64,000 bases of DNA from Gammaproteobacteria bacterium (GTDB lineage: Bacteria; Pseudomonadota; Gammaproteobacteria; JAKDMP01). This document shows, piece by piece, positions 1,493-62,087 of this stretch; within the stretch, counting starts at the first letter, position 1; every line of letters begins with the position of its first letter. A program made the position numbers and the translations under genes. The notes beneath the pieces were generated by a model. That model was given only the letters and a program-made list of their open reading frames with translations. It did no database searches and had not been told where the DNA came from. The stretch lies in assembly GCA_027018875.1 (NCBI GenBank), contig JALUYA010000001.1, forward strand, positions 13,457-77,456, read 5' to 3'.

Positions 1493-1557
1493 ATTTTCTG
1501 CAACTGGGCGAAGGGCCAGTGTCGCGGTGGTTGGAACGTCGTGGCCGGTCGCGGTGG

Positions 1558-3015: not shown

Positions 3016-3140
3016 CACGCAATTCCGGGCGCCGGCGAGGTGCGAGTGTCTCTCGTCTGGGGGTAGAGTTTCGGAGCGGTAGGGTACAGGGGGCAAAAAA
3101 ATATATAATAAAGCAAGTTTTTGGTCGTTGGTGCTGCAAG

Positions 3141-3923
3141 GTGCATAGTCCCATCGTAGTTGCCCATTCCAACGTAGCAAGGGAGTCCTCCCTTGGCGTA
3201 GATACCCACTGTATCGCCTGCAAACTCTACCCCATGTGTTTACCTCGGGGTTTGCCCGATAAAGAGCTGGAGGACTTTGGCAGCCATATCCGTCGGCGGC
3301 GGATACTGCATCGTGGCCGGATGCTCTATCATGCCGGGCAGTCCTCGAAATCCCTGTACACCATTCGCAGCGGGTCCATTAAAACCTTTGCACTCAGTTC
3401 GGAAGGGGATGAAATGGTGGAAGGGTTCTATTATCCCGGGGAGTTGTTGGGGTTCGAGGCGCTATCTTCGGAACCGCATGATCACTTCGCATTGGCCCTT
3501 GAAACTACCGAGTATTGTGAAATTCCGGTCTCGCCCTTGAATCGGCTCATGTTGCGATCAGAGTCCCTGCGAAGACAATTGATACACATAATCACCAGGC
3601 GGATCACCGGTGATCGCCGCCAGGGGTATATCCGCAACCGGCGGGATGCACGTAGCCGGGTGGCCGCTTACCTGGTCGATGTGTCCCTGCGCCGTTCCCG
3701 CTGGCGCAAATCGTTGGATCACTTCCAGCTGAGCATGGATCGGCGTGATATAGCGGAGTACCTGGGGCTTACGATGGAAACCGTGAGCCGGTGCCTTACC
3801 CAGTTTCAACGCGAGGGGCTGTTGCGGGTCAAGGCCAAGTGGATTCGCCTGCTGAACCAGCAGGCATTGAGGGCGGTCTGCGGCAGCGATGTTTGGGAAG
3901 AATTGCATCGTGCCGTTGTTTAG
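3141..3923 (+). CDS. fnr: FNR/CRP-family transcriptional regulator, FNR/ANR type with N-terminal Cys cluster
   Basis: HCIACKLYPMCLP (C-X2-C-X5-C) and a central Cys in EYCEIP (C122 equivalent). cNMP-binding fold YTIRSGSIKTF...GDEMVEGFYYPGELLGFEAL. C-terminal HTH RRDIAEYLGLTMETVSRCL, as in E. coli FNR. Confidence 0.85.
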   Translation: MHSPIVVAHSNVARESSLGVDTHCIACKLYPMCLPRGLPDKELEDFGSHIRRRRILHRGRMLYHAGQSSKSLYTIRSGSIKTFALSSEGDEMVEGFYYPGELLGFEALSSEPHDHFALALETTEYCEIPVSPLNRLMLRSESLRRQLIHIITRRITGDRRQGYIRNRRDARSRVAAYLVDVSLRRSRWRKSLDHFQLSMDRRDIAEYLGLTMETVSRCLTQFQREGLLRVKAKWIRLLNQQALRAVCGSDVWEELHRAVV

Positions 3924-4112
3924 AAAGCGTGGCGGCCGGCTCCGGGTGTTAATCCCGACATCGATTCCCGGCATATCAATATGGCTTAAAGAGAATTCAA
4001 TGCGGATCGATTGAATGCTTCATTGAGCTTTCCGTGCTCATGGAACCAGTTGTAAAAAACTCCATATCATGCGTTTCCATTATTCGGAAAAACCTATTCA
4101 GGAGAGAATTTC

Positions 4113-5165: not shown

Positions 5166-5167
5166 CA

Positions 5168-6739
5168 ATGGCCGATTTCAAGTACATCATCGTCGGCAGT
5201 GGGATTGCCGGGTTGTACGCAGCCTTGCTTGCCAGCGAGCAGGGTTCGGTTTTGCTTTTAACGAAGGGTGGGCTGCAGGATTGTAATACCCGGTATGCCC
5301 AGGGTGGCATTGCCGCTGCTATCGGGGCCGGAGATTCACCGGCACTGCATTTAGAAGATACGCTTGGTGCCGGCGCCGGTCTGTGTGACGTGGAGGCCGC
5401 CCGAATTTTGACCGATAATGCGCCTCGTGCCATTGCCGACCTGGTTCGTTTAGGCGTCATTTTCGATACCGATCATGGTGAAGTCGCGCTAGGGCGGGAA
5501 GGGGCGCACCGATTGGCGCGGGTGCTCCATGCGGGCGGCGATGCTACCGGTGCCCATATAGAAACCGTGTTGGCCCGATTGGTCCAGGCGCGGCCTATCC
5601 GGATAGACGAATATTCGGCCGCGGTTGGGCTCGTGGTGGATGCCCGTTCGGGGAAGGTAACGGCCGTTGATGCGGTACAAGTGCGAAATGGCCAGACAAA
5701 AAGGCGATACACGGGCGAGGCGATCGTCCTGGCAACGGGAGGTGCCGGTCGGCTTTTCCGGCACACGACCAATCCCGAGGTGGCTACCGGAGACGGGGTG
5801 GCGTTGGCCTTTAACGCCGGAGCGGCGGTGGCGGATATGGAGTTTTGTCAGTTTCATCCAACGGCGCTGCGTTTTCCCGGGGCCCCCGCATTCCTTATTT
5901 CGGAGGCCGTGCGTGGAGAAGGGGCCGTCTTGCTTACGGGCGATGGAGATGCCTTTATGGCCCGTTATCATCCCATGAAAGACCTGGCTCCCCGGGATAT
6001 CGTTTCGCGGGCAATCGTAACCGAGATGCAGCGCGCGGCCACGGATCACGTGTTATTGGATATGACGCACCTTCCCGAGCAATGGCTGATTACCCGTTTC
6101 CCGACCATCTATCATACTTGCTTGCAAAATGGCGTGGACATTACCCGGGAACCCGTTCCGGTGGCGCCCGCCGCCCATTACATGATGGGCGGCGTGCTGA
6201 CTAATTCCTGGGGAGAAACCAACCTTCCCGGCTTGTTTGCTTGTGGCGAGGTTGCCTGCAATGGGTTGCACGGGGCCAATCGACTGGCCAGTAATTCGCT
6301 CCTGGAAGCCCTGGTGTTCGCACGCCGGGTCGTGGAGCGTGCCGGTTCCGGTATCTGGGAGGGGATCCGGTTTGATGACCCGCTGATTCTTGATCAGCCG
6401 GGCCTGTTGAACGCGGATGCGCCAACCTTGACCGCGGAAAACCTGGTGCAGACGATGTGGAACAAGGTCGGTATCGTTCGGGATGGGGTGGGGTTGGAAG
6501 AGGCGGTAGCGATCTTCAATTCCTGGGCGGGCTCATTGCCCGCCAGTGAAGACTTGACGGTACAGTCCTTGGCTAACCAAGTTCTGGTTGGCAGACTGAT
6601 GGCCCATGCGGCACAAGCCAGGACCGAGAGCCGGGGAGCACATTTTCGGCTTGATTTCCCGGCGCCGCGCCCAGAATGGGTGCGCCGGATCGTGATGGTG
6701 GCACATCCACCCGGAAACCCCTTTCCGAGCGAATCATGA
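5168..6739 (+). CDS. nadB: L-aspartate oxidase NadB
   Basis: FAD-binding N-terminus KYIIVGSGIAGL, RYAQGGIAAA and HGANRLASNSLLE motifs; ~520 aa. Confidence 0.9.
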   Translation: MADFKYIIVGSGIAGLYAALLASEQGSVLLLTKGGLQDCNTRYAQGGIAAAIGAGDSPALHLEDTLGAGAGLCDVEAARILTDNAPRAIADLVRLGVIFDTDHGEVALGREGAHRLARVLHAGGDATGAHIETVLARLVQARPIRIDEYSAAVGLVVDARSGKVTAVDAVQVRNGQTKRRYTGEAIVLATGGAGRLFRHTTNPEVATGDGVALAFNAGAAVADMEFCQFHPTALRFPGAPAFLISEAVRGEGAVLLTGDGDAFMARYHPMKDLAPRDIVSRAIVTEMQRAATDHVLLDMTHLPEQWLITRFPTIYHTCLQNGVDITREPVPVAPAAHYMMGGVLTNSWGETNLPGLFACGEVACNGLHGANRLASNSLLEALVFARRVVERAGSGIWEGIRFDDPLILDQPGLLNADAPTLTAENLVQTMWNKVGIVRDGVGLEEAVAIFNSWAGSLPASEDLTVQSLANQVLVGRLMAHAAQARTESRGAHFRLDFPAPRPEWVRRIVMVAHPPGNPFPSES

Positions 6740-50874: not shown

Positions 50875-51603
50875 TCAGATCGAGCTGAGGTGGATAAGCG
50901 CTGGAATGTCATTCAGCCACAATTCCTTTTGTTTTATTCCGATCAGGCCTTCGGTTTGGAGACGGGAAAAGGCCCGGCTCACGGTTTCCGAGGTGATATT
51001 CAGATAGTTGGCAATATCGCTACGCATCATGGGCAGAAAAAAATGTGTTGCCGATTGTCCCCGTTCATGCAGCCTACGGGAGAAATCAAGTAGAAACCAT
51101 ACGACACGTTCCTTAGCCGGGCGTTCAAGAACGGCTCGACGCGAGGCATTGATCTCTTGGCTCATCAGACGTAGCAAGGATTTTTGTAGATCCGGGAACC
51201 GACGGGCGGAATCCAGCAAAGCGTCAAATGAAAATCGACATGCGGTGGCCGTCCCCAGAGCAACCGCACAGGAGAAATACCGATTCGAGGCGATGCCGTC
51301 GAGGCCCACCAACTCGCCTGGTAGATGGAATCCCAGCACTCGTTGCAACCCGTCCCCATTCAGGGTATAGGTTTTGAAGACACCGGAACGGACCGCGTAC
51401 ACGGCCGAAAATGGATCCCCCTCCCGGTAGAGGTGATCGTCCTCGTGTAATACCGCACCAAATCGGGCAATTGTGTCGATTTCATGGAGTTTTTCCGGCT
51501 GCATGAGGGAGGGGATACATAGTTTAACGTTGCCACACAGGCTGCAACTGTGCGGGAATCTCCGCATTGACTCGCAACCCTTGCATGCAGCCTTGGCGCT
51601 CAT
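50875..51603 (-). CDS. fnr: FNR/ANR-type oxygen-sensing transcriptional regulator (second paralog)
   Basis: SCSLCGNVKLCIP (C-X2-C-X5-C-IP, as in E. coli CQDCSISQLCIP), central YFSCAVALG Cys, cNMP-binding fold, C-terminal HTH RSDIANYLNITSETVSRAF. Directly downstream of hemN. Start is either ATG 51603 or TTG 51645. Confidence 0.85.
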   Translation of the reverse strand: MSAKAACKGCESMRRFPHSCSLCGNVKLCIPSLMQPEKLHEIDTIARFGAVLHEDDHLYREGDPFSAVYAVRSGVFKTYTLNGDGLQRVLGFHLPGELVGLDGIASNRYFSCAVALGTATACRFSFDALLDSARRFPDLQKSLLRLMSQEINASRRAVLERPAKERVVWFLLDFSRRLHERGQSATHFFLPMMRSDIANYLNITSETVSRAFSRLQTEGLIGIKQKELWLNDIPALIHLSSI

Positions 51604-51680: not shown

Positions 51681-53087
51681 TCAGATAACCCGTGAGTGAA
51701 GTGTGCTTACGACTTTGTCGCTGGCTCTTGTACTACTGTGGGTATCGAAGACCATGGCAATGACCCGGAGCAATAGTCGGCCTCGACGGGTAATCCGAAA
51801 ACTCCCGCGAAGAAGGCCGTCGATCAGGCCGTCAGCCTCGAGTTTCGAGAGTGCCTGGAGTTCGGTGGCAAAGTAGCGCATGGCGTCAATTTCGTAATGT
51901 TCGGTTATCCGTGTAAGATCGATCTCGTCCTGGCACATTATGGCCTGGATGATGCTGCGCCGTATCAGGTCATCCCGGCTGAGCCGGTAGCCACGCTCGA
52001 TTGCCAGGGTTCCTGAATCAATGGCCTGGTAATAGGCAGTGAGGGTCTTGGCGTTTTGGGCGTAAACATCATCAACCGAGCTGATAGCACTCATGCCGAG
52101 GCCGAGAAGATCCCGGTAGGGTCCGACCGCATAGCCCTGAAAGTTTCGAATCAAATGCCCTTCACGCCGGGCACGGGCCAATTCATCACCGGGTAGGGCA
52201 AAATGATCCATACCGATATATTCGTAGCCTGCCGCGCCAAGCTGCTCGATGGCGTTTGTGATGAGTGCCAGCCGCTTTTCCCCCTGCGGCAGATCCGCTT
52301 CCGGGAGCATACGCTGGGACTTGAATAGCTGTGGCAAGTGCGCATACCCATATAGCGCCAGGCGATCCGGCGCGATATCTACAATTTGTTCCAGGGTGTG
52401 GCGAAACCGCGGTGGGTTCTGGCGAGGAAGCCCGTAGATTAAATCGAAGTTGATTGAACCGACCCCCGCCGCACGAGCGGCACGGGTCAGCGCTGCCACC
52501 TGCTTGGCAGGGAGAATGCGATTGACCGCAGCCTGCACTTCAGGGTCGAGATCCTGTACCCCGAAGCTCATGCGCTTGAACCCCATTGCCGCAAGGGCGC
52601 TGATATCATCAACCGTCACGCTACGAGGATCTATTTCAATAGACCAGACCTGGTCGCCTTCTCGATCTAGCGGTAGCCGTTGCCCCAGAGAATTGATGAA
52701 TTCAGCGAGTGCAGCAGGGGAGACAAAGCTTGGAGTGCCTCCTCCCAGGTGTAATTCCCGAATCGTTCTGGATGGATCGAGTAAAGGCGCGATTCGTGCA
52801 CTTTCTTCGAGTACGCGTTCAAGGTAAGGCCCGGCTTTTTCCGTATGCGGGGTAACGATTTTGGTACAGCCACAGTAATAGCAGAGCGTGTGACAAAAGG
52901 GGATATGGATATAGAGTCCCAGCGCCGAAGGGATTAAATCCTCATTGGAACGGTTGATAGCGGCCTTGAATTGATCTATGCCCGTGGCGCGATCAAATGA
53001 TGCCGCGGACGGGTAGGAGGTATAACGGGGGCCTCGGCGGTCATAGCGGCGGACGAGGTCGGAATCAAGAGTGGGCATGGCCGTCAC
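51681..53087 (-). CDS. hemN: oxygen-independent coproporphyrinogen III oxidase HemN (radical SAM)
   Basis: Radical SAM motif CHTLCYYCGC after YIHIPF, and the HemN C-terminal domain; 468 aa. Confidence 0.9.
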   Translation of the reverse strand: MTAMPTLDSDLVRRYDRRGPRYTSYPSAASFDRATGIDQFKAAINRSNEDLIPSALGLYIHIPFCHTLCYYCGCTKIVTPHTEKAGPYLERVLEESARIAPLLDPSRTIRELHLGGGTPSFVSPAALAEFINSLGQRLPLDREGDQVWSIEIDPRSVTVDDISALAAMGFKRMSFGVQDLDPEVQAAVNRILPAKQVAALTRAARAAGVGSINFDLIYGLPRQNPPRFRHTLEQIVDIAPDRLALYGYAHLPQLFKSQRMLPEADLPQGEKRLALITNAIEQLGAAGYEYIGMDHFALPGDELARARREGHLIRNFQGYAVGPYRDLLGLGMSAISSVDDVYAQNAKTLTAYYQAIDSGTLAIERGYRLSRDDLIRRSIIQAIMCQDEIDLTRITEHYEIDAMRYFATELQALSKLEADGLIDGLLRGSFRITRRGRLLLRVIAMVFDTHSSTRASDKVVSTLHSRVI

Positions 53088-53155
53088 GGTAGGGAGTCCC
53101 TTCGGAGGCCCGAAGTATGGCCGCTATCGATCCGCATAATGATAATCCGGGCCAA

Positions 53156-53198
53156 CGGGCGAATAAAAAGGCCTGTGGGGGAAATGCTCCCCCACAGG
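53156..53198 (-). terminator. Rho-independent terminator downstream of the cytochrome c gene (minus strand)
   Basis: Perfect 12-bp stem GGCCTGTGGGGG/CCCCCACAGGCC with a 7-nt loop. On the minus strand it is followed by TTTTTATT. Confidence 0.7.
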
Positions 53199-53219
53199 CC
53201 GATACAGGGCCTTGAGCCA

Positions 53220-53594
53220 TCAGGATTTCGGTGGTTTAACCGGCGGCTGCTTCAGAATCCAGGCGGCAATCGCATCCACCTGCTTCCTGCTGATGTTCGG
53301 ATGCGCAGGCATCGGAATGCCTCCGGTCCACTTTGACCAGTAGCCCGTGCCGCCATTAATGATGAACTTGGCGACCGCCTGGACCGCTTTTTGATGGTTC
53401 TCTCCCTTGTAGCGATACGCCACCCAGCCCCAGGCCGGGCCGAGTACCTTGTTGCTCTCGGCATGGCAGGCCGTGCACCCACGATTGCTCATCATGCTCG
53501 AGATGCTCGCAGCACTCGCCGCCGGCGCGGCGGCAAGTCCTATACCCCCTGCAGCGGCAAGAATCAAAGCGGGGGTAATGAATTTAATCCGCAT
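53220..53594 (-). CDS. periplasmic monohaem cytochrome c, class I (c551/c552 family)
   Basis: Signal peptide MRIKFITPALILAAAGGIGLAAAPAASA. CTACH haem site. GPAWGWVA...INGGTGYW...IPMPAH...AWIL pattern parallels Pseudomonas cytochrome c551 (GCVACH...GPA...NG..G.WG.IPMP...WVL). AGGAG RBS. Confidence 0.85.
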   Translation of the reverse strand: MRIKFITPALILAAAGGIGLAAAPAASAASISSMMSNRGCTACHAESNKVLGPAWGWVAYRYKGENHQKAVQAVAKFIINGGTGYWSKWTGGIPMPAHPNISRKQVDAIAAWILKQPPVKPPKS

Positions 53595-53681
53595 GACCTT
53601 TTCTCCTGAGTTCAGTTCTAACATGGAAAGTTGCAACCATGAATTATAACGTAGACAATCTAATGCTTGGCAATAACGCGG

Positions 53682-55034
53682 TCACCAAAGAATCCATGTC
53701 ATCAGGTAAAGCGTGTTGTTATCCGATGCACTGCGCCCATTTCCGTCATAGTTGCTGCTGGCACCGTTAAATTTGGTGTAAATCGTGTATTGCGCAGTCA
53801 ATTGTACATTCTGTGCCGGCAGATAGGTCCACTGCAGGATCCAGCCGCTGCTGTCCGGGGTACCTGTCCGGCTGCCCGAAACCGGGCCGGGAGCATAGAG
53901 CAGTGGATCGTAGCTTCCGGTCGTATGGAAATACCCGATCGATGGCCCAAACCGTCGGGCCCAATAGTATTGGGCCGAGACCTGCCAGGTATTGAGAGAG
54001 TCGTTGGGATTTGAGGCGAGGCCATTCGCAAAGCTGGCATTCAAGTCCTGTTTTTCATGGATATACATGAAATGTGCCGTCAGCGTCGAATGATCCCCAA
54101 AGAGCAATTGATACTGACTGTCCAGGCCCAGGTCCAGGTAGTTATCCGTGGCTCCGGATATGCCCCCCGGGAAAATGTGGCTATCCATACCGAAGGTGCC
54201 GATTTCGAATGAATTGGTGTTGTCATCCCGGTTCCAATTGTGCTGCCACGCGACCCGCCAGTAGGGGGCCAAGCCCGAAATGACGTCTGCCGAATATGGC
54301 TGAGATTGGCCGATTTGAGCGGAGCGGTAAACACTGACATTGGCATAAATGCTGTTATTAAACCACGCATAGGCCCCGATGCCCGCCACCTGTTGCATCA
54401 ACTGGATAATCATGGGTGTAGCCGATGGGGCCGGTGCGCTCGGCGATGCCACGTAGGGGAAACCTTCCGAAGGCGTGCCATTCCAGACATCCGCGAAAGT
54501 GGGTTGATTGTTGACATCAATACCCCAAACCACCGGATGTCCGGCTACCGTGGCATGGCGGGCGTAACGCAGGTCCGTCATGTCCATGGAAAAATGATCG
54601 GCTTGCGGGTCATAGGTAACCTGCAGGAAAGAGCCGATGTGATTGGCAATGCGCCCGGCATAATACAGGGCGAGAGCCCCTGGAAAGGCTACCGTATTAT
54701 TCTGGGTTCCCGGTACGGCTTGCTGCAGGGAAGTGTTCGATAGCATGACTGCTGCCGAAAGGGGCGGGAATCGGCTCAGACTCTCCTGCGGGGTTTTCGG
54801 CGGTGACGAGGGGTTGAAGGATTTCACACTCAGCACATAGCCGTTGATCTTGAAGTAACGGCCAAAAGGCGTTAGCTGCGGCGCAACAGTGTGGCAGGTC
54901 TCGCAGGGCAGTGCTGTCTGGCGGGAATAACTCGGTACGGCGAGCGCGCTTTGGGCCGCCAGCCCCAGCCCAAGAAAGCCCAACCCGGCTCCCCATGCCG
55001 CTTTCCTGATGAGGTGAAGATTCATTTTGGACAC
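53682..55034 (-). CDS. Cyc2-like fused monohaem cytochrome c / outer-membrane beta-barrel porin (candidate outer-membrane electron-transfer protein)
   Basis: Signal peptide ending AQSALA. A single CETCH about 15 residues into the mature protein. The rest (~400 aa) has alternating hydrophobic/aromatic beta-strand patterns. Ends LYLMTWILW, i.e. a terminal aromatic beta-signal typical of outer-membrane proteins. This is the architecture described for Cyc2 of Acidithiobacillus and neutrophilic Fe oxidisers. Confidence 0.65.
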   Translation of the reverse strand: MSKMNLHLIRKAAWGAGLGFLGLGLAAQSALAVPSYSRQTALPCETCHTVAPQLTPFGRYFKINGYVLSVKSFNPSSPPKTPQESLSRFPPLSAAVMLSNTSLQQAVPGTQNNTVAFPGALALYYAGRIANHIGSFLQVTYDPQADHFSMDMTDLRYARHATVAGHPVVWGIDVNNQPTFADVWNGTPSEGFPYVASPSAPAPSATPMIIQLMQQVAGIGAYAWFNNSIYANVSVYRSAQIGQSQPYSADVISGLAPYWRVAWQHNWNRDDNTNSFEIGTFGMDSHIFPGGISGATDNYLDLGLDSQYQLLFGDHSTLTAHFMYIHEKQDLNASFANGLASNPNDSLNTWQVSAQYYWARRFGPSIGYFHTTGSYDPLLYAPGPVSGSRTGTPDSSGWILQWTYLPAQNVQLTAQYTIYTKFNGASSNYDGNGRSASDNNTLYLMTWILW

Positions 55035-55084
55035 TCCGTGGATAAATAACTGCTATATGATAATCTCAATAAGTCGAGTGCCAG

Positions 55085-55098
55085 TTGATCTAGATCAA
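55085..55098. promoter_or_regulatory. FNR box TTGAT-CTAG-ATCAA at class II promoter spacing for the Cyc2-like gene; divergent from ccmA
   Basis: Perfect match to the FNR consensus TTGATnnnnATCAA. On the minus strand the box is followed by N22 and then TATCAT, so the -10 sits about 29.5 bp from the box centre (class II, -41.5). GGAG RBS 8 nt before the ATG at 55034. Confidence 0.6.
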
Positions 55099-55197
55099 GA
55101 AACTGCCATTTTTATTTCGTATGCAATCTCCTTGCGGTTTCCTTCCCCGGATTTTATCTCCCGTTTATAATGGGCGCTCAAATTAATTCGAGTAAGT

Positions 55198-55896
55198 ATG
55201 AAGCCAGCCCTGCCACAGGCCGAAACCGACTTGGCAAGATCCATGGCGACGGCTCGCGAGACGGCACCATGCCTGGAGTTGCGCGAGATTGAAGTCTGGC
55301 GCGGAGATTACTGCGTGTGCATCGATTTGAGTCTGCGGCTGCCGCATGGGCGGGTGCTGCATTTGCGTGGTGACAATGGCGCCGGCAAGACGAGCCTGAT
55401 CCGGGTTCTGGCCGGCCTCGCCCCACTTGAGTCCGGAAGCCTGCGCCTCGCCGGGCACCCGGCACGCAGCCTGGAGGCGCGTGCCGAGTTGCGATACCTC
55501 GCGCATCGCGATGGGATCAAGCTGGAGTTGACGCCGCGGGAGAATTTGCGCCTGGCCGCCCGCCTACTGGAACGGGTCGGAGAGGCGGCGATCGACAGAT
55601 CGCTGGAACGGGTTGGAATCGCCCACCTGGCCGAGCGCCAATGTGCCGATCTCTCGGCGGGGCAACGTCGACGCACCGCACTGGCGCGGTTGTTGCTGGG
55701 CCGGCCGCGCCTGTGGTTACTGGACGAGCCGCTGGTCAATCTCGATCGCCGGGGTGTGAGCCTGGTCGGTGATCTGGTGGCGGAGCAAATTGCCTCGGGC
55801 GGCAGCGTTGTGCTCGCCACCCACCAGCCGTTAGTACTGGATTCACAATGCGTGCTCCCCGTAGAATTGCCGGCGAATTCATTCCATGTTCATTGA
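55198..55896 (+). CDS. ccmA: cytochrome c biogenesis haem exporter ATP-binding protein CcmA
   Basis: ABC Walker A GDNGAGKTSLIR, signature LSAGQRRR, Walker B LWLLDEP; first gene of ccmABCDEFGHI. Confidence 0.85.
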   Translation: MKPALPQAETDLARSMATARETAPCLELREIEVWRGDYCVCIDLSLRLPHGRVLHLRGDNGAGKTSLIRVLAGLAPLESGSLRLAGHPARSLEARAELRYLAHRDGIKLELTPRENLRLAARLLERVGEAAIDRSLERVGIAHLAERQCADLSAGQRRRTALARLLLGRPRLWLLDEPLVNLDRRGVSLVGDLVAEQIASGGSVVLATHQPLVLDSQCVLPVELPANSFHVH

Positions 55897-56548
55897 GTTA
55901 TTGCGCCGGGAACTTCTTATCGCCTGGCGGCGACCCGGGGAATCGGGAGTGCCGGTCATATTTTTCCTGGTGACCGTCATGCTGTTTCCCTTGGGTCTGA
56001 GCCGTTCTCCCGAGCTGTTACGGCCGATGGCCCCGGGAATTATCTGGGTCGTCGCATTTTTGGCCGGTATGCTCGGTATGCAGGGGTTGTTTCGGGCCGA
56101 TTATGAAGATGGCACACTGGAACAATTACTGCTGACGCCCCGCCCGCTGACGCTGGTGGTGTTGGCCAAGGCCAGCGGTCACTGGCTGGTCACCGGTCTG
56201 CCGGTGGTGGTAGGTGCCGGGTTGGTGGCGGGAATGCTCTATGTGCCTTCTTCCGGCATCGTCGTGATGATGCTCGGCCTGCTGCTCGGCACCCCGATTC
56301 TTACTCTGTTGGCCACCCTGGTGGCGGCGTTGACACTGACGCTGCGCCAGGCCGCGGTGCTGGCTCCAGTGTTGATTTTGCCGCTTGCGGTGCCGGTGTT
56401 GATTTTCGGTGCCCACAGCGCCTCCTCGTCTACTCCCGGCGAGATTAATACCCAGGCATTCAGCGCCTTGGGCGCGATGCTGATTCTTGCCGTTAGTTTG
56501 CTGCCTCCCGCGGCTGCACTGGCACTCAGGATCAGTCATGAAAACTAA
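55886..56548 (+). CDS. ccmB: haem exporter permease CcmB
   Basis: Six-transmembrane CcmB family protein overlapping ccmA. Confidence 0.85.
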   Translation: MFIELLRRELLIAWRRPGESGVPVIFFLVTVMLFPLGLSRSPELLRPMAPGIIWVVAFLAGMLGMQGLFRADYEDGTLEQLLLTPRPLTLVVLAKASGHWLVTGLPVVVGAGLVAGMLYVPSSGIVVMMLGLLLGTPILTLLATLVAALTLTLRQAAVLAPVLILPLAVPVLIFGAHSASSSTPGEINTQAFSALGAMLILAVSLLPPAAALALRISHEN

Positions 56549-56599
56549 ATATATATATTTCAAGGGAACTCCATCACCACGGGAGGGTTCATAAACAAC

Positions 56600-57355
56600 A
56601 TGTTTACCTGGCTACATAAATTAGGCTCGCCTCCGCTGCTGTATCGGGTTGCCGGGCGAAGTACACCGTGGTTCAAGTGGACTGCGTTTCTGCTGCTCGC
56701 GCTCGGGTTGGTCGGCGGTTTGATCCTCGCGCCTCCCGACTATCAGCAAGGGGATGGTTTTCGCATCATCTATGTCCATGTACCGAGTGCGATCCTGTCA
56801 CTCGCAGTATTTGTGTTGATGGCGGTGGCCGGTGCGATCGGGCTGATCTGGCGGTTGCGTATGGCTCATGCCGTCGCCGTCGCCGCCGCCCCGCTCGGGG
56901 CCGCCTTTACGTTCATCACCCTGATTACCGGCTCGCTTTGGGGTAAACCGATGTGGGGTACCTATTGGGCCTGGGGGCCGCGCCTTACCTCGGAGCTGGT
57001 ATTGTTGTTCCTGTATTTCGGCTATATTGCCGTTATCAATGCCTTTCCCAACCAGCGCAGCGGTGACCGGGCGGGGGCGATTTTTGCCATTATAGCGGCG
57101 GTGGATATTCCAATCATCCATTATTCCGTATACTGGTGGACAAGCCTGCACCAGGGTGCAAGCCTCTCATTCACGAATTCATCGATCTCCCCGGCCATGC
57201 TGTGGCCGCTACTGGTCATGATCGTGGCGTTTACGTTGTATTTTTGCTGGTTGCTCAGTATCCGTTTACGCACGGAAATTCTGCGGCGCGAGCGGCGGGC
57301 AAGCTGGGTTCGAACCCTGACAATTACCGGAGCAAAAAATGCGAAGCTGGCATGA
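56600..57355 (+). CDS. ccmC: haem exporter protein CcmC
   Basis: CcmC-type WWD domain protein (HVPSA, WGKPMWGTYWAWGPRLTSEL); 251 aa. Confidence 0.9.
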   Translation: MFTWLHKLGSPPLLYRVAGRSTPWFKWTAFLLLALGLVGGLILAPPDYQQGDGFRIIYVHVPSAILSLAVFVLMAVAGAIGLIWRLRMAHAVAVAAAPLGAAFTFITLITGSLWGKPMWGTYWAWGPRLTSELVLLFLYFGYIAVINAFPNQRSGDRAGAIFAIIAAVDIPIIHYSVYWWTSLHQGASLSFTNSSISPAMLWPLLVMIVAFTLYFCWLLSIRLRTEILRRERRASWVRTLTITGAKNAKLA

Positions 57356-57509
57356 GTTCATTACCATGGGCGGGTATGCTCGGTATGTATGGTCCGCCTA
57401 TGGGGTGGTATTGATTGTTCTCGTGGCGAGTGCCTGGAGTTCGTGTAATGGCTTGCGGCGCATCCTGTTCCGGGTCCGGAATTATCCTGTAGGAGGAGGT
57501 GAACAATGA
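57339..57509 (+). CDS. ccmD: haem exporter protein CcmD (56 aa; below the 60-aa cutoff of the ORF track)
   Basis: Translated by eye: MRSWHEFITMGGYARYVWSAYGVVLIVLVASAWSSCNGLRRILFRVRNYPVGGGEQ. It has the CcmD pattern (W.EF..MGGYA.YVW.AY, single transmembrane segment) and overlaps both ccmC and ccmE. Confidence 0.7.
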   Translation: MRSWHEFITMGGYARYVWSAYGVVLIVLVASAWSSCNGLRRILFRVRNYPVGGGEQ

Positions 57510-57976
57510 CTCCCAGGCGGCAACGCCTGCTGTTGGTGGTCGGTATCCTTGCCGGTACTGCGATCGGTGCGGCCTTCGCGCTCAGGGCCTTCAGCGGTGA
57601 TATTCTTTACTATTACACTCCATCCAAGGTTTTCGCCAAACATATCCCGGACGGACGGGTATTTCGCCTCGGGGGATTGGTCGAGAAAGGTTCCGTCAAG
57701 CGGGAGTCGGGGACGCTTACGGTTCGGTTCGTGATTACCGACAATCACCGCACTATCCCGGTCGTGTTTACCGGCGTGCTGCCGGCATTGTTCCGGCCGG
57801 GCCAGGGGGTGATCGCCAGTGGGCATCTCGACTCCGGCGGGATGTTTGTCGCCAATAAGGTATTGGCCAAGCATGACGCCAAGTATATGCCACTCAAGAT
57901 ATATAACAAAAAACACGGTACGGACTATACCCGCCCCGGGGGAATGAATCGAGGAGGAGTCCGCGGTGGCGCCTGA
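57506..57976 (+). CDS. ccmE: cytochrome c-type biogenesis haem chaperone CcmE
   Basis: Membrane anchor followed by an OB fold with FRLGGLV...DNHRTIPVVFTGVLPALFRPGQGV. Haem-binding His lies in the C-terminal region. Confidence 0.9.
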   Translation: MTPRRQRLLLVVGILAGTAIGAAFALRAFSGDILYYYTPSKVFAKHIPDGRVFRLGGLVEKGSVKRESGTLTVRFVITDNHRTIPVVFTGVLPALFRPGQGVIASGHLDSGGMFVANKVLAKHDAKYMPLKIYNKKHGTDYTRPGGMNRGGVRGGA

Positions 57977-59930
57977 ACTCGGTCAATTTTCCCTTCTTCT
58001 CGCCCTGGTGCTGGCGGGCGTAATGGCTTTCAGCGGTATCGTGGGTCCATGGCGCAGAAATCCACACCTGATCGCGTTGGTTCGCCCCAGCGCCTATGCC
58101 CTGTTTCTGGTGACGGCGATTGCCTTCGCCTGCCTGACCTGGTCATTTGTGACCACCGACCTGACCGTGCGCTACGTGGTGGAAAATTCGAATGCCGCGA
58201 TCCCGTTGATTTACAAGTTTACTGGGGTATGGGGTGCACACTCTGGTTCGATGCTGTTGTGGATACTGATGATTAGTGTCTGGGGGGCTGCCGTAGCTTT
58301 TTTCAGCCGGCGGTTGCCCGCCGACTTTTCGGCTCGAGTCCTTGGCGTGATGGGAATGATCGGCCTGGGCTTTCTGGTCTATAGCGCCTGGCTGGCAAAT
58401 CCTTTCACGCGGGTGCTGCCGCCGCCCCAGAGTGGCGCCGATCTCAATCCGATTCTCCAGAGTCCCTTCCTGGCGGCCCATCCGCCGATGCTGTACATGG
58501 GCTATGTCGGACTATCGGTTGCCTTTGCCTTTTCCGCGGCCGCCTTGATTGGTGGGCGCATGGACACCGCCTGGGCGCGGTGGACCCGGCCCTGGGTGCT
58601 GGTGGCCTGGATGTTTCTCACCGTTGGCATCACGGTAGGCAGTTTTTGGGCTTATTTCGAACTCGGCTGGGGGGGATGGTGGTTTTGGGATCCGGTCGAA
58701 AATGCATCGTTTATGCCCTGGCTGGTCGCCACCGCGCTGATTCATTCCCTGATCGTTACCGAAAAACGTGGGGCCTTTAAAGGCTGGACGGCATTACTTG
58801 CGTTGCTGGGTTTCTCTTTGTCTCTGCTGGGAACCTTTCTGGTCAGATCGGGGGTGCTGGTTTCGGCACATGCCTTTGCGGTTGACCCCCGCCGGGGAAT
58901 CTATGTACTGGCGATTCTCGCCATCGCCGTAGGCGCGGGTCTTGCCTTGTATGCCTGGCGGGCTCCACGGCTTGCCGGTGGGGGTGGTTTCTCGCTATTT
59001 TCTCGCGAGACGGCAATCCTAACTATGAATTCGATTTTGGTAGTGGCTTGCGCGGCCGTACTGCTCGGAACTATCTTCCCGCTGTTCTATGATGTTCTCG
59101 GGCTCGGGCGGATCTCCGTCGGCCCACCCTATTTCAACCGGGTTTTTATCCCGCTGATGGTGCCATTATTCCTTCTGGTTGGTATCGGACCGGCGATTCG
59201 CTGGAGACGTGGCGATGGGCGTGAAGCCTGGCGGCGGATCCGGATACCGCTTGGCCTGTCTCTGATCCTGGGCATTGTGCTTGCCGTAGTTGCCTGGAGG
59301 GGCGTGCCGCCGGTGGCCCTGGCCGGGGTTACGCTGAGTGCCTGGGTTATTTTCAGTGCCGTTAACGAACCCTTACGCCGGGCCTTGCGTGCCCCCGCCG
59401 GGCAGTGGGGGAGATTTTCCCGAGGTGCCTGGGGAATGGGGCTGGCGCATTTCGGTGCCGGTATTTTGATTCTAGGCGTTACCTTGTCTTCAACCATGTC
59501 GAGTTTTCTGGATGTCAGCCTCAAACCCGGACAAACCGCAAGCGTTGGCGGATATCGCTTTTCAATGCTGGGAGAACGTGCCGTTCGGGGACCGAATTAC
59601 ATGGGGGAACAAGGCATCATTCGCATTAGTCACGAGGAACGGGTAGTCGCCACGCTTCGCCCGGAATCTCGGGTTTACAAGGGTGGCCTGCCGAGCAGCG
59701 AGTCGGCAATCAGTTGGAAGCCGACCCGCGACCTGTACGTCGCCATGGGTCGGGCCACCGGGGGCGGAGCCTGGAGCTTACGGCTGCAGGTTCGGCCGTT
59801 TGTACGCTTCATCTGGTACGGCGGCGGTCTCATTGCTTTGGGGGGGCTGTTGGCGTTGACCGATCCGCGCTACCGGCGGCGGCGGGAAGTTCGCCTGGGG
59901 CAGGGTGTCGTCGTGGGGACAACGGGATGA
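57966..59930 (+). CDS. ccmF: cytochrome c-type biogenesis haem lyase subunit CcmF
   Basis: 654-aa polytopic protein with a WWD domain (WGGWWFWDPVENASFMPW); GTG start (MAPELGQF). Confidence 0.9.
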   Translation: MAPELGQFSLLLALVLAGVMAFSGIVGPWRRNPHLIALVRPSAYALFLVTAIAFACLTWSFVTTDLTVRYVVENSNAAIPLIYKFTGVWGAHSGSMLLWILMISVWGAAVAFFSRRLPADFSARVLGVMGMIGLGFLVYSAWLANPFTRVLPPPQSGADLNPILQSPFLAAHPPMLYMGYVGLSVAFAFSAAALIGGRMDTAWARWTRPWVLVAWMFLTVGITVGSFWAYFELGWGGWWFWDPVENASFMPWLVATALIHSLIVTEKRGAFKGWTALLALLGFSLSLLGTFLVRSGVLVSAHAFAVDPRRGIYVLAILAIAVGAGLALYAWRAPRLAGGGGFSLFSRETAILTMNSILVVACAAVLLGTIFPLFYDVLGLGRISVGPPYFNRVFIPLMVPLFLLVGIGPAIRWRRGDGREAWRRIRIPLGLSLILGIVLAVVAWRGVPPVALAGVTLSAWVIFSAVNEPLRRALRAPAGQWGRFSRGAWGMGLAHFGAGILILGVTLSSTMSSFLDVSLKPGQTASVGGYRFSMLGERAVRGPNYMGEQGIIRISHEERVVATLRPESRVYKGGLPSSESAISWKPTRDLYVAMGRATGGGAWSLRLQVRPFVRFIWYGGGLIALGGLLALTDPRYRRRREVRLGQGVVVGTTG

Positions 59931-60472
59931 AGCGCTTTCGGTGGTGGTTGTGGGGCTTGATTCCGCTTGCCTTATTCGCGGTTCTGATCTGGGCGCTTTT
60001 TGGTGGATTGGGACGTAATCCCCGGTTTATTCCTTCTCCCCTGGTAGGAAAACCCGCTCCGGCGTTTTCCCTGCCGAGCCTGTACCACCCGGATCAAAGG
60101 ATAAGTAATGCCGATATCCGCGGTCGGGTTGTCTTGGTCAATGTCTTTGCCAGTTGGTGCGTGGCATGTACGGAAGAAGCCCCCGTGCTCGATTATTTGC
60201 ACCGGAACGGGGTTGCCATTTACGGGCTGGATTACTCCGATACCCGTTCCGCCGCCAAGGCCTGGTTGAAACGCTACGGCAACCCGTATCGTGCGATTGC
60301 TTTTGATCCCCGGGGGGAGCAGGCACTGAATTGGGGTATCTGGGGAGTTCCGGAGACGTTTGTTATTGATCGTAACGGGATCATTGTACGCAAATTTACC
60401 GGTATTATTACCTTGGAGATGGCAAAAACTCGGGTATTACCTCTGGTGCACAAGCTGGAGAAAGAAAAATGA
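59927..60472 (+). CDS. ccmG: thiol:disulfide interchange protein CcmG/DsbE
   Basis: Thioredoxin fold with WCVAC active site (VNVFASWCVAC) and GVPETFVID. ATGA overlap with ccmF; the listed ORF start at 59714 is rejected. Confidence 0.9.
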   Translation: MKRFRWWLWGLIPLALFAVLIWALFGGLGRNPRFIPSPLVGKPAPAFSLPSLYHPDQRISNADIRGRVVLVNVFASWCVACTEEAPVLDYLHRNGVAIYGLDYSDTRSAAKAWLKRYGNPYRAIAFDPRGEQALNWGIWGVPETFVIDRNGIIVRKFTGIITLEMAKTRVLPLVHKLEKEK

Positions 60473-60912
60473 AATCACGGGGATCGGTTGCCTTGTTGCT
60501 GATTCTCGCTGCACTCGGTGCGCCGGCATTTGCCGCCGCTCCCTCTTGGTCGGGCCCCAGTGTTCTGCCCCCGAAACTGGAAGCCCGCTATCAGCGCCTG
60601 ACCCAGGAATTACGTTGCCCGGTGTGCCAAAACGAGTCGGTCGCGGTTTCCAATAGTCGGGTGTCGGCTGACATACGTGCCGTCATCCGCCGGAAGCTTC
60701 TGGCTGGAGAAAGCAACCAGCAGATCAAGCAATTCATGATTGCGCGCTATGGCCTGTTTGCAGTCTTTAAGCCGCCACTTCAGCGGAGTACCCTGTTACT
60801 CTGGTTCGGACCCTTGATCCTGTTGTTGATTGCCGTCCTGATCCTGGGTGTCACCGTCCACCGTCGTCGCCGGGCCTTGCCTGCCCGCGGCGGCCGGACC
60901 CATACACACTGA
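60469..60912 (+). CDS. ccmH: cytochrome c-type biogenesis protein CcmH
   Basis: Signal peptide, LRCPVCQNESV motif, C-terminal transmembrane segment. Confidence 0.85.
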   Translation: MKSRGSVALLLILAALGAPAFAAAPSWSGPSVLPPKLEARYQRLTQELRCPVCQNESVAVSNSRVSADIRAVIRRKLLAGESNQQIKQFMIARYGLFAVFKPPLQRSTLLLWFGPLILLLIAVLILGVTVHRRRRALPARGGRTHTH

Positions 60913-62087
60913 TGGCGTTTCTACTTGCCACCGGACTGCTGCTGGCGTTGGTACTCGCTCTGCTGGGTTGGGCCTTGTGGCGTGTCCCCCAAAGGCGGGA
61001 TCCCGAGCCCCTGCGGGCGCGATTAACCGAGGAGCTGAATCTCGATGTTGCCGCCGGTCTGCTTGCCCGCGAGGAGCTCGATGCCGCGGCACACGACATC
61101 GAGGCCGACGCCGGGGAGAATGATTTTCGCCGTTCAGCTTCTCCACGGCGACGTATCTGGCCTTTGATTTTGCTACTGATGATTCCCTTGGTCTCCGGGG
61201 TGCTTTATTGGCGATTAGGAGATTGGAGGGCGGCGATTCAGGGAAATCGAACTGCCGTGATACATGAAGCCCAAAACCGGATGATCGCGCTGAAAGCGTA
61301 TCTGCGCGAGCATCCGGACAATCGCCAGGCATGGATCACGCTGGGAGAGGCCGAAAGCGCTTTTACCCACTATGCCCGGGCCGCGGATGCCTACGAGCAT
61401 GCGGTAAAACTGGAGAAACAGGTTAACCCGGATCTGCTGGCGGCCTGGGGCGGCGCCCTGATGCTAGCCAATCCAGGGCATCCCACAGATCGGGAACGGG
61501 CGATCTTCGCCGAGGTACTCAAGGCGGATCCCAATAATGTACGGGGGCTCTTTTATAGTGGCGCCTTGGCTTTTTCCGGTGGTGAACGCCGCCGGGGAAT
61601 CGCACTTTGGAAACGTCTTCTGGCCCAACCGCTGCCCCCTGCCATGCAACAATTGATTCAAACTCGACTTGCTGCGTTGGGTGTAACGGTAGAGGGAGGG
61701 AATCCCAAGGCGGCCGCCAACACTCCACGAATCGCGATTACCATCAATCTTTCTTCCCGGTTGCGGGAACGTATTAAAGTGGGAGAACGGTTATACGTTT
61801 ACGCTCGTTTTCCCAATGGCGGTCCACCGCTTATGGTCAAACGCCTGCGGGCTGGTACATTTCCCGTCAAGGTGATACTTGGTGTCGGCAATGTTCTGAT
61901 GGGCAGGAGGCTTGCTTCGGCGATGGGGCGGGAGATCGAGGTTGTCGCACGCATCTCCCAAACGGGAGAAGCCCTGCCTCAACCGGGTGATTGGTATGGG
62001 AAAAAGCGTCTGCGTCTCGGCGCAGGTGATAACCAGGTAGGGATCGAAATCAACCATCAGGTCGGCACCGAAAATTCGCGTGGCTAA
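60912..62087 (+). CDS. ccmI: cytochrome c-type biogenesis protein CcmI (CycH), TPR-containing
   Basis: Two N-terminal transmembrane segments, TPR-like repeats, final gene of the cluster. Weaker sequence signatures than the other ccm genes. Confidence 0.65.
   Translation: MAFLLATGLLLALVLALLGWALWRVPQRRDPEPLRARLTEELNLDVAAGLLAREELDAAAHDIEADAGENDFRRSASPRRRIWPLILLLMIPLVSGVLYWRLGDWRAAIQGNRTAVIHEAQNRMIALKAYLREHPDNRQAWITLGEAESAFTHYARAADAYEHAVKLEKQVNPDLLAAWGGALMLANPGHPTDRERAIFAEVLKADPNNVRGLFYSGALAFSGGERRRGIALWKRLLAQPLPPAMQQLIQTRLAALGVTVEGGNPKAAANTPRIAITINLSSRLRERIKVGERLYVYARFPNGGPPLMVKRLRAGTFPVKVILGVGNVLMGRRLASAMGREIEVVARISQTGEALPQPGDWYGKKRLRLGAGDNQVGIEINHQVGTENSRG

What the first reader, a model, noticed from the sequence alone, without database searches (positions are those of the whole stretch)
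53220..55100. Cyc2-like fused cytochrome c/outer-membrane porin with a c551-type cytochrome, driven by a predicted FNR class II promoter
The 450-aa protein at 53682-55034 (minus) has three parts:
- a signal peptide;
- a single CXXCH (CETCH) immediately after the cleavage site;
- about 400 aa with amphipathic beta-strand periodicity, ending in the aromatic outer-membrane beta-signal ...MTWILW.

This is the architecture of Cyc2, the outer-membrane Fe(II)-oxidising cytochrome-porin of Acidithiobacillus, Mariprofundus and Gallionella-type iron oxidisers. It is not a generic porin and not a multihaem MtrA.

The gene is followed, apparently in one operon, by a periplasmic monohaem c551/c552-type cytochrome (CTACH ... 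IPMP). The same Cyc2-Cyc1-like pairing is seen in neutrophilic iron oxidisers. A strong hairpin terminator then closes the operon.

Upstream sits a perfect palindromic FNR box, TTGATCTAGATCAA. It is exactly N22 before a TATCAT -10 hexamer, i.e. class II geometry at -41.5. Two fnr paralogs are encoded in this window. The prediction is that an extracellular-electron-transfer module is switched on under oxygen limitation.

The complete ccmABCDEFGHI haem c maturation operon is transcribed divergently from the same intergenic region.
Basis: partly seen in the sequence, partly recalled or inferred. Interest (0 to 1): 0.85.

Follow-up and report, generated by a model that had tools for sequence, protein, structure and literature searches.

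The report
FNR-controlled Cyc2 cytochrome-porin operon
An uncultured gammaproteobacterium carries a true relative of Cyc2, the outer-membrane haem-porin that iron-oxidising bacteria use to take electrons from dissolved iron; it is paired with a small periplasmic cytochrome and sits behind a conserved low-oxygen (FNR) switch, so it is a new member of a known family with a regulatory link I did not find reported.

Summary
The 447-aa protein (53682-55025, minus strand) has a signal peptide, one CXXCH and a confidently predicted 16-strand porin barrel (pLDDT 92). It is a full-length homologue of the characterised Acidithiobacillus ferrooxidans Cyc2 (32% identity, E 1e-43). A profile comparison also links it to Mariprofundus Cyc2PV-1 (99.8% probability). 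It therefore belongs to the Cyc2 family, of the A. ferrooxidans type rather than the neutrophile Cluster 1 type.

The downstream 124-aa gene encodes a c551/c552-type monohaem cytochrome, followed by a strong terminator.

The perfect FNR box, 22 nt upstream of a TATCAT -10 hexamer, is the only exact box in the 64 kb. Similar boxes (at most 1 mismatch) lie 74-100 nt upstream of the cyc2-like start in 8 of 12 further relatives' loci (7 of 11 if the near-identical L081 is left out). Their flanking sequence mostly does not align, and an fnr gene is often adjacent.

Fe(II) oxidation itself, and the direction of electron flow, remain inferred. The host is uncultured.

Verdict: a new member of a known kind. 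Its low-oxygen regulatory coupling is conserved in this clade and I found no report of it. Moderate interest.

The parts
55085..55098 (.). Perfect palindromic FNR/CRP-family box, TTGATCTAGATCAA. It is centred near -41.5 relative to the predicted start of transcription of the cyc2-like gene, and lies 100 nt upstream of the divergent ccmA.
   Evidence: It is the only exact match in the window. It is identical in the 92%-identical relative L081. Equivalent boxes occur upstream of the cyc2-like genes in L083, L087, L089, L091 (two copies), L001, L004 and L041.
55057..55062 (-). Predicted -10 hexamer TATCAT, 22 nt downstream of the box (class II geometry).
   Evidence: The same spacing and hexamer are present in L081. 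This is a consensus match only and is not experimentally shown.
53682..55025 (-). cyc2-like gene: a 447-aa fused monohaem cytochrome c and 16-strand outer-membrane porin.
54939..55025 (-). Sec signal peptide (residues 1-29, cleavage after SALA).
   Evidence: Read directly from the sequence. Homologues align from residue 29 onward.
54858..54941 (-). Haem-binding region, AVPSYSRQTALPCETCHTVAPQLTPFGR. It is a variant of the Cyc2 signature AXPXFAR[Q/K][T/Y]...CXXCH...PXL.
   Evidence: Residues P31, Q36, C41, C44, H45, L51 and G55 are invariant in 121 sequences.
53688..54761 (-). 16-strand beta-barrel porin domain (residues 89-446) ending in an aromatic residue (...MTWILW).
53220..53594 (-). Periplasmic monohaem cytochrome c of the c551/c552 (c8) type, 124 aa with a signal peptide, CTACH and IPMP.
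   Evidence: Pfam PF00034. PDB c551/c552 at E 3e-11, aligned over the whole mature domain. A 117-124 aa orthologue follows the cyc2-like gene in L081, L083, L087, L089, L091, L001 and L002.
53170..53200 (-). Intrinsic terminator closing the two-gene operon (14-bp stem with 10 GC pairs, then a T-run).
51681..53087 (-). hemN, the oxygen-independent coproporphyrinogen III oxidase, immediately downstream.
   Evidence: TIGR00538 at E 5e-158. hemN is also linked to the cyc2-like gene in L081 and L092.
50875..51603 (-). fnr paralogue 1. It is the [4Fe-4S]-type O2 sensor: CX2CX5C plus a central Cys, with an ETVSR helix.
   Evidence: The orthologue in L081 is 242 aa.
3141..3923 (+). fnr paralogue 2. 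It has the same Cys pattern and ETVSR helix and lies in a cluster of U32 peptidase, UbiD, fnr, nadA and nadB.
55198..62087 (+). Divergent ccmABCDEFGHI operon for cytochrome c maturation (System I).
   Evidence: plus the Pfam-labelled syntenic genes in L081 and L087.

Best explanation
The locus is a two-gene operon. It encodes a Cyc2-family fused cytochrome-porin and a soluble c551-type cytochrome.

Proposed mechanism:
1. The N-terminal monohaem domain of the outer-membrane protein is tethered to a 16-strand barrel.
2. That haem exchanges electrons with a small soluble redox species that enters the pore, most likely Fe2+.
3. The haem passes the electrons to the periplasmic c551.
4. c551 feeds a terminal oxidase or a denitrification enzyme encoded elsewhere in the genome.

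Transcription is switched on by an O2-sensing FNR protein bound at a class II site when oxygen is scarce. The same intergenic region also heads the cytochrome c maturation operon.

Shown here: family membership, the fold, the gene pairing, and conservation of the FNR box. Inferred: haem attachment, Fe(II) as substrate, the inward direction of electron flow, FNR binding, and the identity of the terminal acceptor.
For: Homology:
- 32% identity, E 1e-43, over the full length to the biochemically characterised A. ferrooxidans Cyc2. This is within or above the 27-30% identity that other members of its cluster share with it.
- The family HMM scores A. ferrooxidans Cyc2 at 340 bits.
- hhalign to the Cyc2PV-1 group gives 99.8% probability.

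Signature:
- The spacing matches Cyc2PV-1 (RQT-x3-CxxCH) and is followed by PxL and FGR.

Fold:

Partner cytochrome:
- It is c551/c552 type, and it is conserved downstream in relatives with 57-92% identity that sit in different genomic contexts.

Regulation:
- The exact FNR box is followed by 22 nt and then TATCAT.
- Boxes with at most 1 mismatch lie 74-100 nt upstream in 8 of 12 further relatives' loci, against a background of 5.7e-5 per nt; binomial P is about 2e-18. One of the eight, L081, is near-identical to the window, which leaves 7 of 11 with unalignable flanks.
- An fnr-family gene is adjacent in L089, L091 and L092, nearby in L083, and two genes away in the window.
- Both window FNRs have the Fe-S cysteines and the E--SR helix that reads TTGAT.
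Against: - There is no experimental data for this protein or its host, an uncultured gammaproteobacterium.
- Keffer et al. warn that function outside well-supported clades of known iron oxidisers is uncertain. This family is widespread in Acidobacteriota, Steroidobacteraceae, Binatia and other groups that are not known iron oxidisers.
- The literal published motif PXFAR[Q/K][T/Y] is not met: F is replaced by Y and A by S.
- The PXL motif is 3 residues after CXXCH, not 4.
- No terminal oxidase, rusticyanin or carbon-fixation genes are in the window.
- The TTGAT-N4-ATCAA site is also read by Dnr, FixK and other CRP/FNR-family members.
- hemN, directly downstream, shows no box of its own.
Confidence: 0.55

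Rival explanations
1. The parts are the same but electrons flow outward. Under anoxia, FNR induces a Cyc2 and c551 conduit that carries respiratory electrons out to soluble Fe(III) or another extracellular acceptor.
For: - FNR typically activates anaerobic respiratory pathways (established knowledge).
- The A. ferrooxidans Cyc2, Cyc1, Rus and CycA2 proteins are described as the chain for anaerobic Fe(III) reduction (PMC10937671).
- In the 60%-identical relative L083, the module sits next to an fnr-family gene and an MtrB/MtrA/OmcA-like cluster.
Against: - All three biochemically tested Cyc2 proteins were assayed as Fe(II) oxidases.
- A single haem behind a narrow pore cannot reach solid acceptors.
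- Mtr adjacency is seen in one lineage only.
Confidence: 0.2
2. The protein is a Cyc2-fold redox porin with a substrate other than iron, such as another soluble reductant or oxidant. It would be used under oxygen limitation in organisms that are not iron oxidisers.
For: - The family has thousands of members in taxa with no known iron metabolism.
- Keffer et al. state that Cyc2 may have additional functions.
Against: - The closest characterised relative is an Fe(II) oxidase.
- No alternative substrate is indicated by any neighbouring gene.
Confidence: 0.15
3. The box is bound by a different CRP/FNR-family regulator (Dnr/Nnr type sensing NO, FixK type, or CRP), or it mainly serves the divergent ccm operon. 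In that case cyc2 expression would not respond to O2 through FNR.
For: - The consensus is shared across the CRP/FNR family (established knowledge).
- The box lies between two divergent operons.
- L092 carries a TTGAC-N4-GTCAA variant of the box.
Against: - Both regulators in the window have the FNR cysteine cluster.
- The box travels with the cyc2-like gene in loci that lack a divergent ccm operon: L083, L089 and both copies in L091.
- The 22-nt spacing fits the cyc2 side. I could not find a convincing -10 hexamer on the ccm side (read).
Confidence: 0.1

Closest known systems
Acidithiobacillus ferrooxidans Cyc2 (Cluster 2 of the Cyc2 family; the outer-membrane Fe(II) oxidase of the rus operon)
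   Same: - Full-length homology: 32% identity, E 1e-43.
- Signal peptide, a single CXXCH preceded by ALPSFARQ, a PQL motif and a 16-strand barrel.
- The conserved blocks FPQQ.SLFYAG..H.GSF, APY.R.A.QH..EVGTFGM and YLP..N....Y..Y.KFN, and an aromatic C-terminus.
- A periplasmic c-type cytochrome gene follows it.
   Different: - The motif here is PSYSRQT.
- The PXL motif is one residue closer to the haem site.
- The partner is a monohaem c551, not the dihaem Cyc1.
- There is no cup, coxBACD or rus downstream (rus operon order from PMC10654088).
- The host is a non-acidithiobacillial uncultured gammaproteobacterium.
- The promoter carries an FNR box.
Mariprofundus ferrooxydans Cyc2PV-1 (Cluster 1, neutrophilic Fe(II) oxidase)
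   Same: - The same architecture and haem-region signature: IPAFARQTGAACLSCH...PAL..FGR against VPSYSRQTALPCETCH..PQL..FGR.
- Profile-profile probability of 99.8% across the whole length.
   Different: - Only 16% identity in the profile alignment, and 26% over the first 109 residues.
- The cluster-1 HMM scores the window protein at 32 bits.
- The Mariprofundus locus has no adjacent cytochrome c gene and no FNR box.
OprP/OprO, OmpF/OmpC and Omp32 16-strand porins
   Different: About 10% identity. These porins have no N-terminal haem domain and no redox function.
MtrCAB, MtoAB and PioAB porin-cytochrome complexes
   Same: An outer-membrane beta-barrel combined with a c-type cytochrome for transmembrane electron transfer.

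Membership tests
Cyc2 fused cytochrome-porin family (Keffer et al. 2021, PMC8406198) | N-terminal signal peptide, implying outer-membrane targeting | tested here: met
   A hydrophobic h-region and SALA|VP cleavage motif are read from the sequence. No dedicated predictor was run.
Cyc2 fused cytochrome-porin family (Keffer et al. 2021, PMC8406198) | A single CXXCH haem c motif near the N-terminus | tested here: met
   One CETCH at residues 41-45. Of 269 related proteins held, 255 have exactly one CXXCH.
Cyc2 fused cytochrome-porin family (Keffer et al. 2021, PMC8406198) | AXPXFAR[Q/K][T/Y] motif upstream of CXXCH | tested here: inconclusive
   The window protein has AVPSYSRQT. The register and spacing match Cyc2PV-1, but F is replaced by Y and A by S, so the literal pattern fails. 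Homologues with 55% identity carry the canonical AVPSFARQT. Of 240 homologues, 29 share VPSYSRQT.
Cyc2 fused cytochrome-porin family (Keffer et al. 2021, PMC8406198) | PXL motif shortly after CXXCH | tested here: met
   PQL is present, 3 residues after the His. The paper, Cyc2PV-1 and A. ferrooxidans Cyc2 have 4 residues. The 3-residue spacing is found in 212 of 240 relatives.
Cyc2 fused cytochrome-porin family (Keffer et al. 2021, PMC8406198) | Length of at least 365 aa with a 16-strand porin domain | tested here: met
Cyc2 fused cytochrome-porin family (Keffer et al. 2021, PMC8406198) | BLASTP E of 1e-5 or lower to a reference Cyc2 | tested here: met
   E 1e-43 to A. ferrooxidans Cyc2 and E 1e-8 to Cyc2PV-1. 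These are pairwise E-values.
Cyc2 fused cytochrome-porin family (Keffer et al. 2021, PMC8406198) | Covalently bound haem and Fe(II) oxidation activity | not testable with these tools
   This requires expression, haem staining and Fe(II) assays.
Cyc2 Cluster 1 (neutrophilic iron oxidisers) | Groups with the Cyc2 of Zetaproteobacteria, Gallionellaceae and Chlorobi | tested here: not met
   The HMM built from zetaproteobacterial cluster-1 sequences scores the window protein at only 32 bits, against 638 bits for Cyc2PV-1. Identity is 16% in the hhalign alignment.
Cyc2 Cluster 2 (A. ferrooxidans type) | Placement with A. ferrooxidans Cyc2 in the published tree or by the FeGenie cluster HMMs | tested here: inconclusive
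   The 32% identity to A. ferrooxidans Cyc2 is within or above the 27-30% that published cluster mates share with it, and the family HMM scores it at 340 bits. I held no Cluster 3 reference (Cyt572), no FeGenie HMMs and no published alignment, so Cluster 3 is not formally excluded. A zetaproteobacterial MAG homologue with 46% identity (L022) also leaves this open, because McAllister et al. place the non-Cluster-1 zetaproteobacterial Cyc2 sequences in Cluster 3.
Class II FNR-activated promoter | A TTGAT-N4-ATCAA site centred near -41.5 relative to the transcription start | tested here: inconclusive
   There is an exact box followed by 22 nt and TATCAT. The box is conserved in relatives. The transcription start itself is predicted, not mapped.
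Class II FNR-activated promoter | FNR binding and O2-dependent activation | not testable with these tools
   This needs EMSA or footprinting and expression data.
Cytochrome c551/c552 (class I, c8 type) | A mature domain of about 80-100 aa with N-terminal CXXCH, a distal Met in an (I/V)PMP motif, and sequence similarity to c551 | tested here: met
   CTACH and GGIPMP are present. phmmer gives E 3e-11 to 1e-10 to Pseudomonas and Hydrogenobacter c551/c552 structures, aligned across residues 34-116.

The most novel reading that the evidence does not exclude
A whole clade of uncultured Gammaproteobacteria carries a conserved module induced by low oxygen: an fnr gene, an FNR box, a Cyc2-type haem-porin and a c551 cytochrome. 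In some genomes the module is duplicated or sits next to an Mtr-like cluster. Under this reading, this branch of the Cyc2 family is not a classical aerobic or microaerobic iron oxidase. It would be a dedicated anaerobic extracellular electron-exchange conduit, serving either anaerobic Fe(II) oxidation or outward electron transfer to Fe(III). That would assign a function to the many Cyc2 homologues found in organisms that are not known iron oxidisers.
Probability: 0.2. Interest if true: 0.65.

Novelty: new member of a known kind. Interest (0 to 1): 0.42.

Why it matters
Cyc2 is the main genetic marker used to infer microbial iron oxidation from genomes. Most of its homologues, especially those outside Cluster 1, have no assigned physiology.

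This locus shows that an A. ferrooxidans-type Cyc2 in an uncultured gammaproteobacterial lineage is wired to an oxygen-sensing regulator. That gives a concrete, testable condition (microoxic or anoxic, FNR-dependent) under which to look for its activity. It also identifies a defined partner cytochrome.

The subclade's PSYSRQT motif fails the literal PXFAR[Q/K][T/Y] screen used to build the published Cyc2 tree. Motif-based surveys may therefore under-count such genes.

Tried and rejected
- Pfam and NCBIfam gave no hit for the 447-aa protein, so neither library has a model that detects it.
- A sequence search of the PDB found nothing.
- The afdb50 fold library was unavailable.
- The paper modelling A. 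ferrooxidans Cyc2 (PMC8284587) is not held. I therefore could not compare the haem placement with that model, and I had no access to my own model's coordinates to see whether the haem domain plugs the lumen.
- The genome-contig scan used the pattern A[VL]PS[FY][AS]RQTG. The window's own motif reads RQTA, so the source genome could not be found that way. Taxonomy rests on CarB neighbours only.
- I looked for FNR boxes upstream of hemN, of both fnr genes and elsewhere in the window. None has 1 mismatch or fewer in a promoter position.
- I looked for a plausible -10 hexamer on the ccm side of the box, by eye. None was convincing.
- A generic porin is rejected, because the haem motif is invariant.
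- Cluster 1 membership is rejected.
- Literature searches for Cyc2 together with FNR found five co-mentions, of which four were listed; none appeared from its title or abstract to address regulation of cyc2 by FNR, and I opened only one of them.
Full report
**Observation**

- ORF. The ORF 53682..55034 (-) exists. The more likely start is the ATG at 55025, giving 447 aa. A GGAG lies 8 nt upstream, and gene callers report 447 aa for this exact protein and for its 92%-identical relative.
- N-terminal region. It reads MNLHLIRKAAWGAGLGFLGLGLAAQSALA|VPSYSRQTALPCETCHTVAPQLTPFGR. That is a Sec signal peptide followed, 11 residues into the mature protein, by the only CXXCH.
- Second gene. After an 87-nt spacer comes a 124-aa ORF (53220..53594) with its own signal peptide, CTACH and GGIPMP.
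- Terminator. A 14-bp GC-rich hairpin with a T-run at 53200-53170 follows it.
- FNR box. TTGATCTAGATCAA (55085-55098) is the only exact TTGAT-N4-ATCAA in the 64 kb. About 0.03 such matches are expected in the window and about 8e-5 in this 163-nt intergenic region. It is followed by exactly 22 nt and then TATCAT.
- Neighbours. ccmABCDEFGHI runs divergently from 55198 to 62087 (labelled synteny). hemN and an fnr gene lie directly downstream. A second fnr gene lies at 3141-3923.

**What the large protein is**

Pfam, NCBIfam and a sequence search of the PDB gave nothing. Even so, the protein belongs to a large family. There were 2,829 hits among the 8,000 scored candidates in the word-indexed search. 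The exhaustive search found 2,648 cluster representatives at E of 1e-3 or lower.

Most relatives carry AVPSFARQTG-xx-CxxCH-xxx-PQL. This is the signature that Keffer et al. 2021 give as unique to Cyc2.

I obtained two biochemically characterised references.

- Cyc2PV-1 of Mariprofundus ferrooxydans. I retrieved it by querying with the mass-spectrometry peptides printed in that paper's Table S1. Seven of the ten peptides match protein P0275 exactly.
- A. ferrooxidans Cyc2. Its sequence is printed in the supplement of PMC10937671.

The comparisons gave these results:

| Comparison | Result |
|---|---|
| BLASTP, window protein vs A. ferrooxidans Cyc2 | 32% identity over 473 columns, end to end, E 1e-43 |
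| HMM of the window's family (window protein excluded) vs A. ferrooxidans Cyc2 | 340 bits |
| Same HMM vs Cyc2PV-1 | 86 bits |
| hhalign, window's family vs 69 zetaproteobacterial Cyc2 | 99.8% probability, E 6e-28, 379 columns, 16% identity |

The published identities of cluster mates to A. ferrooxidans Cyc2 are 27-30%, and identities between clusters are 17-23%. The window protein is therefore a Cyc2-family member of the A. ferrooxidans type (Cluster 2). It is not a Cluster 1 neutrophile-type Cyc2.

I could not formally exclude Cluster 3, because I held no Cyt572 reference and no FeGenie HMMs.

**Structure**

An AlphaFold2 model built on 121 sequences has pLDDT 92.4 and pTM 0.87. It shows three short helices around the haem motif (residues 32-60), a less confident linker, and 16 beta-strands over residues 89-446.

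**Deviations from the published Cyc2 definition**

- The window's subclade has PSYSRQT rather than PXFAR[Q/K][T/Y]. Of 240 homologues, 29 share VPSYSRQT.
- The PXL motif is 3 residues after the haem-binding histidine, not 4.
- The literal motif screen used to build the published tree would therefore drop this protein.

**The small protein**

It is a c551/c552-type monohaem cytochrome. It matches Pseudomonas and Hydrogenobacter c551/c552 structures at E 3e-11 to 1e-10, across the whole mature domain.

A 117-124 aa orthologue follows the cyc2-like gene in relatives with 57-92% identity. Their wider gene neighbourhoods differ.

| Locus | Neighbourhood |
|---|---|
| L081 | same context as the window |
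| L087 | ccm on one side, tamAB on the other |
| L089 | fnr immediately upstream; nadB and nadA downstream |
| L083 | fnr-family gene and an MtrB/MtrA/OmcA-like cluster nearby |
| L091 | two tandem cyc2-c551 pairs after an fnr gene |
| L001, L002 | uncultured gammaproteobacterial MAGs |

More distant relatives carry a cytochrome of about 210 aa instead, with two CXXCH motifs in most of the loci scanned.

The pairing resembles cyc2-cyc1 in the A. ferrooxidans rus operon, but the partner belongs to a different cytochrome class. The Mariprofundus ferrooxydans locus I examined has no adjacent cytochrome c gene.

**Regulation**

The FNR box is conserved where the surrounding DNA is not.

| Locus | Box | Mismatches | Distance upstream of start (nt) |
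|---|---|---|---|
| Window | TTGATCTAGATCAA | 0 | 73 |
| L081 | identical box, spacer length and -10 hexamer | 0 | 73 |
| L087 | TTGATCCCAATCAA | 0 | 100 |
| L091, copy 1 | TTGATCAAAATCAA | 0 | 83 |
| L091, copy 2 | TTGATCGAAATCAA | 0 | 74 |
| L083 | TTGATTAAGGTCAA | 1 | 84 |
| L089 | TTGACTGGAATCAA | 1 | 81 |
| L001 | TTGACCCATATCAA | 1 | 81 |
| L004 | TTGATATAGATCAG | 1 | 97 |
| L041 | TTGACGCAGATCAA | 1 | 92 |
| L092 | TTGACCTAAGTCAA (palindromic variant) | 2 | 101 |

Boxes with at most 1 mismatch occur at a background rate of 5.7e-5 per nt over 774 kb of fetched loci. Finding eight or more in twelve loci within a 50-nt span has a binomial probability of about 2e-18. One of those eight, L081, is near-identical to the window across the whole promoter. 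Without it the count is 7 of 11, which does not change the conclusion.

Genes of the fnr family are adjacent or close in L083, L089, L091 and L092. In L092 the order is cydAB, hemN, fnr, cyc2-like gene, cytochrome c gene.

Both FNR paralogues in the window have the CX2CX5C cluster plus a central cysteine, and the E-T-V-S-R recognition helix.

Control by an FNR-type, low-oxygen regulator is therefore well supported by comparison. It is still a prediction: the transcription start, binding and the response to oxygen are untested, and other CRP/FNR-family proteins read the same site.

**Host**

The window comes from a 115,569-nt contig present in several public collections. The best named relatives of its CarB are unclassified Gammaproteobacteria MAGs, at 83% identity or less. 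Identity to Natronospira, Steroidobacteraceae and Lysobacterales is 72-73%. Nothing is known of the host's physiology, and no terminal oxidase or carbon-fixation genes lie in the window.

**Mechanism and rivals**

The most likely mechanism runs as follows. When oxygen is scarce, FNR activates the operon. The outer-membrane haem-porin oxidises Fe2+ that enters the pore. The electron passes to the c551 cytochrome and on to a high-affinity oxidase or a denitrification enzyme. I put this at about 0.55 overall. Family membership is near certain, FNR control is likely, and Fe(II) as substrate and the direction of flow are about even.

The rivals are:
- Outward electron flow to Fe(III) under anoxia, about 0.2. 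A. ferrooxidans is reported to use Cyc2 in anaerobic Fe(III) reduction, and one relative has the module next to an Mtr-like cluster.
- A substrate other than iron, about 0.15.
- A different regulator, or a box that mainly serves ccm, about 0.1.

**Novelty**

Cyc2 homologues are already catalogued in the thousands and are known to be widespread. The protein is therefore a new member of a known kind.

The parts I did not find reported are the conserved FNR box and the fnr/hemN linkage of this clade, and its c551 partner. These give a testable handle on the physiology of Cyc2 homologues outside Cluster 1. Interest is moderate.

Noticed in passing
window 461-6739: The second fnr paralogue (3141-3923) sits in a cluster of U32-family peptidase, UbiD, fnr, nadA and nadB. 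U32 proteins include the UbiU/UbiV O2-independent ubiquinone hydroxylases (my own knowledge), so this may be another low-oxygen adaptation locus. In relative L089, nadA, nadB and UbiD flank the fnr, cyc2 and cytochrome c module itself.
   Followed up: partly
L083 1-4554 (also L084 and L085): In a relative with 60% identity, the cyc2-c551 pair lies about 1.5 kb from an fnr-family gene. That gene is followed by an OmcA/MtrC-like multihaem protein, an MtrA-like protein and an MtrB_PioB porin. Two kinds of outer-membrane electron conduit therefore sit side by side.
   Followed up: no
L091 1893-6806: The cyc2-c551 module is tandemly duplicated after an fnr gene. Each copy has its own exact FNR box, 83 and 74 nt upstream of its start.
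   Followed up: partly
L092 1-7122: The gene order is cydA, cydB, cydX, hemN, fnr, a cyc2-like gene (canonical PSFARQT motif), and a 208-aa cytochrome c gene. This links the module to a high-affinity bd oxidase locus. The box here is TTGACCTAAGTCAA.
   Followed up: partly
window 53088-53219: hemN, a classic FNR/Anr target in other bacteria (my own knowledge), starts only 83 nt after the strong terminator. It has no FNR-like box with 2 mismatches or fewer upstream. How it is regulated here is unexplained.
   Followed up: partly
window 54903-54929 (protein residues 33-41): The window protein has RQTA where almost all relatives have RQTG. Together with PSYS in place of PSFA, this means the published literal motif filter would miss it, and the back-translated pattern used in my genome scan did miss it.
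   Followed up: yes
L001 5446-6242: The closest species-representative genome (59% identity) has two tandem c551-type cytochrome genes downstream of its cyc2-like gene, rather than one.
   Followed up: no
L022 (uncultured Zetaproteobacteria MAG): A MAG labelled Zetaproteobacteria carries a homologue with 46% identity to the window protein. McAllister et al. place the non-Cluster-1 zetaproteobacterial Cyc2 sequences in Cluster 3. The cluster label of this whole family therefore needs checking against the published tree.
   Followed up: no
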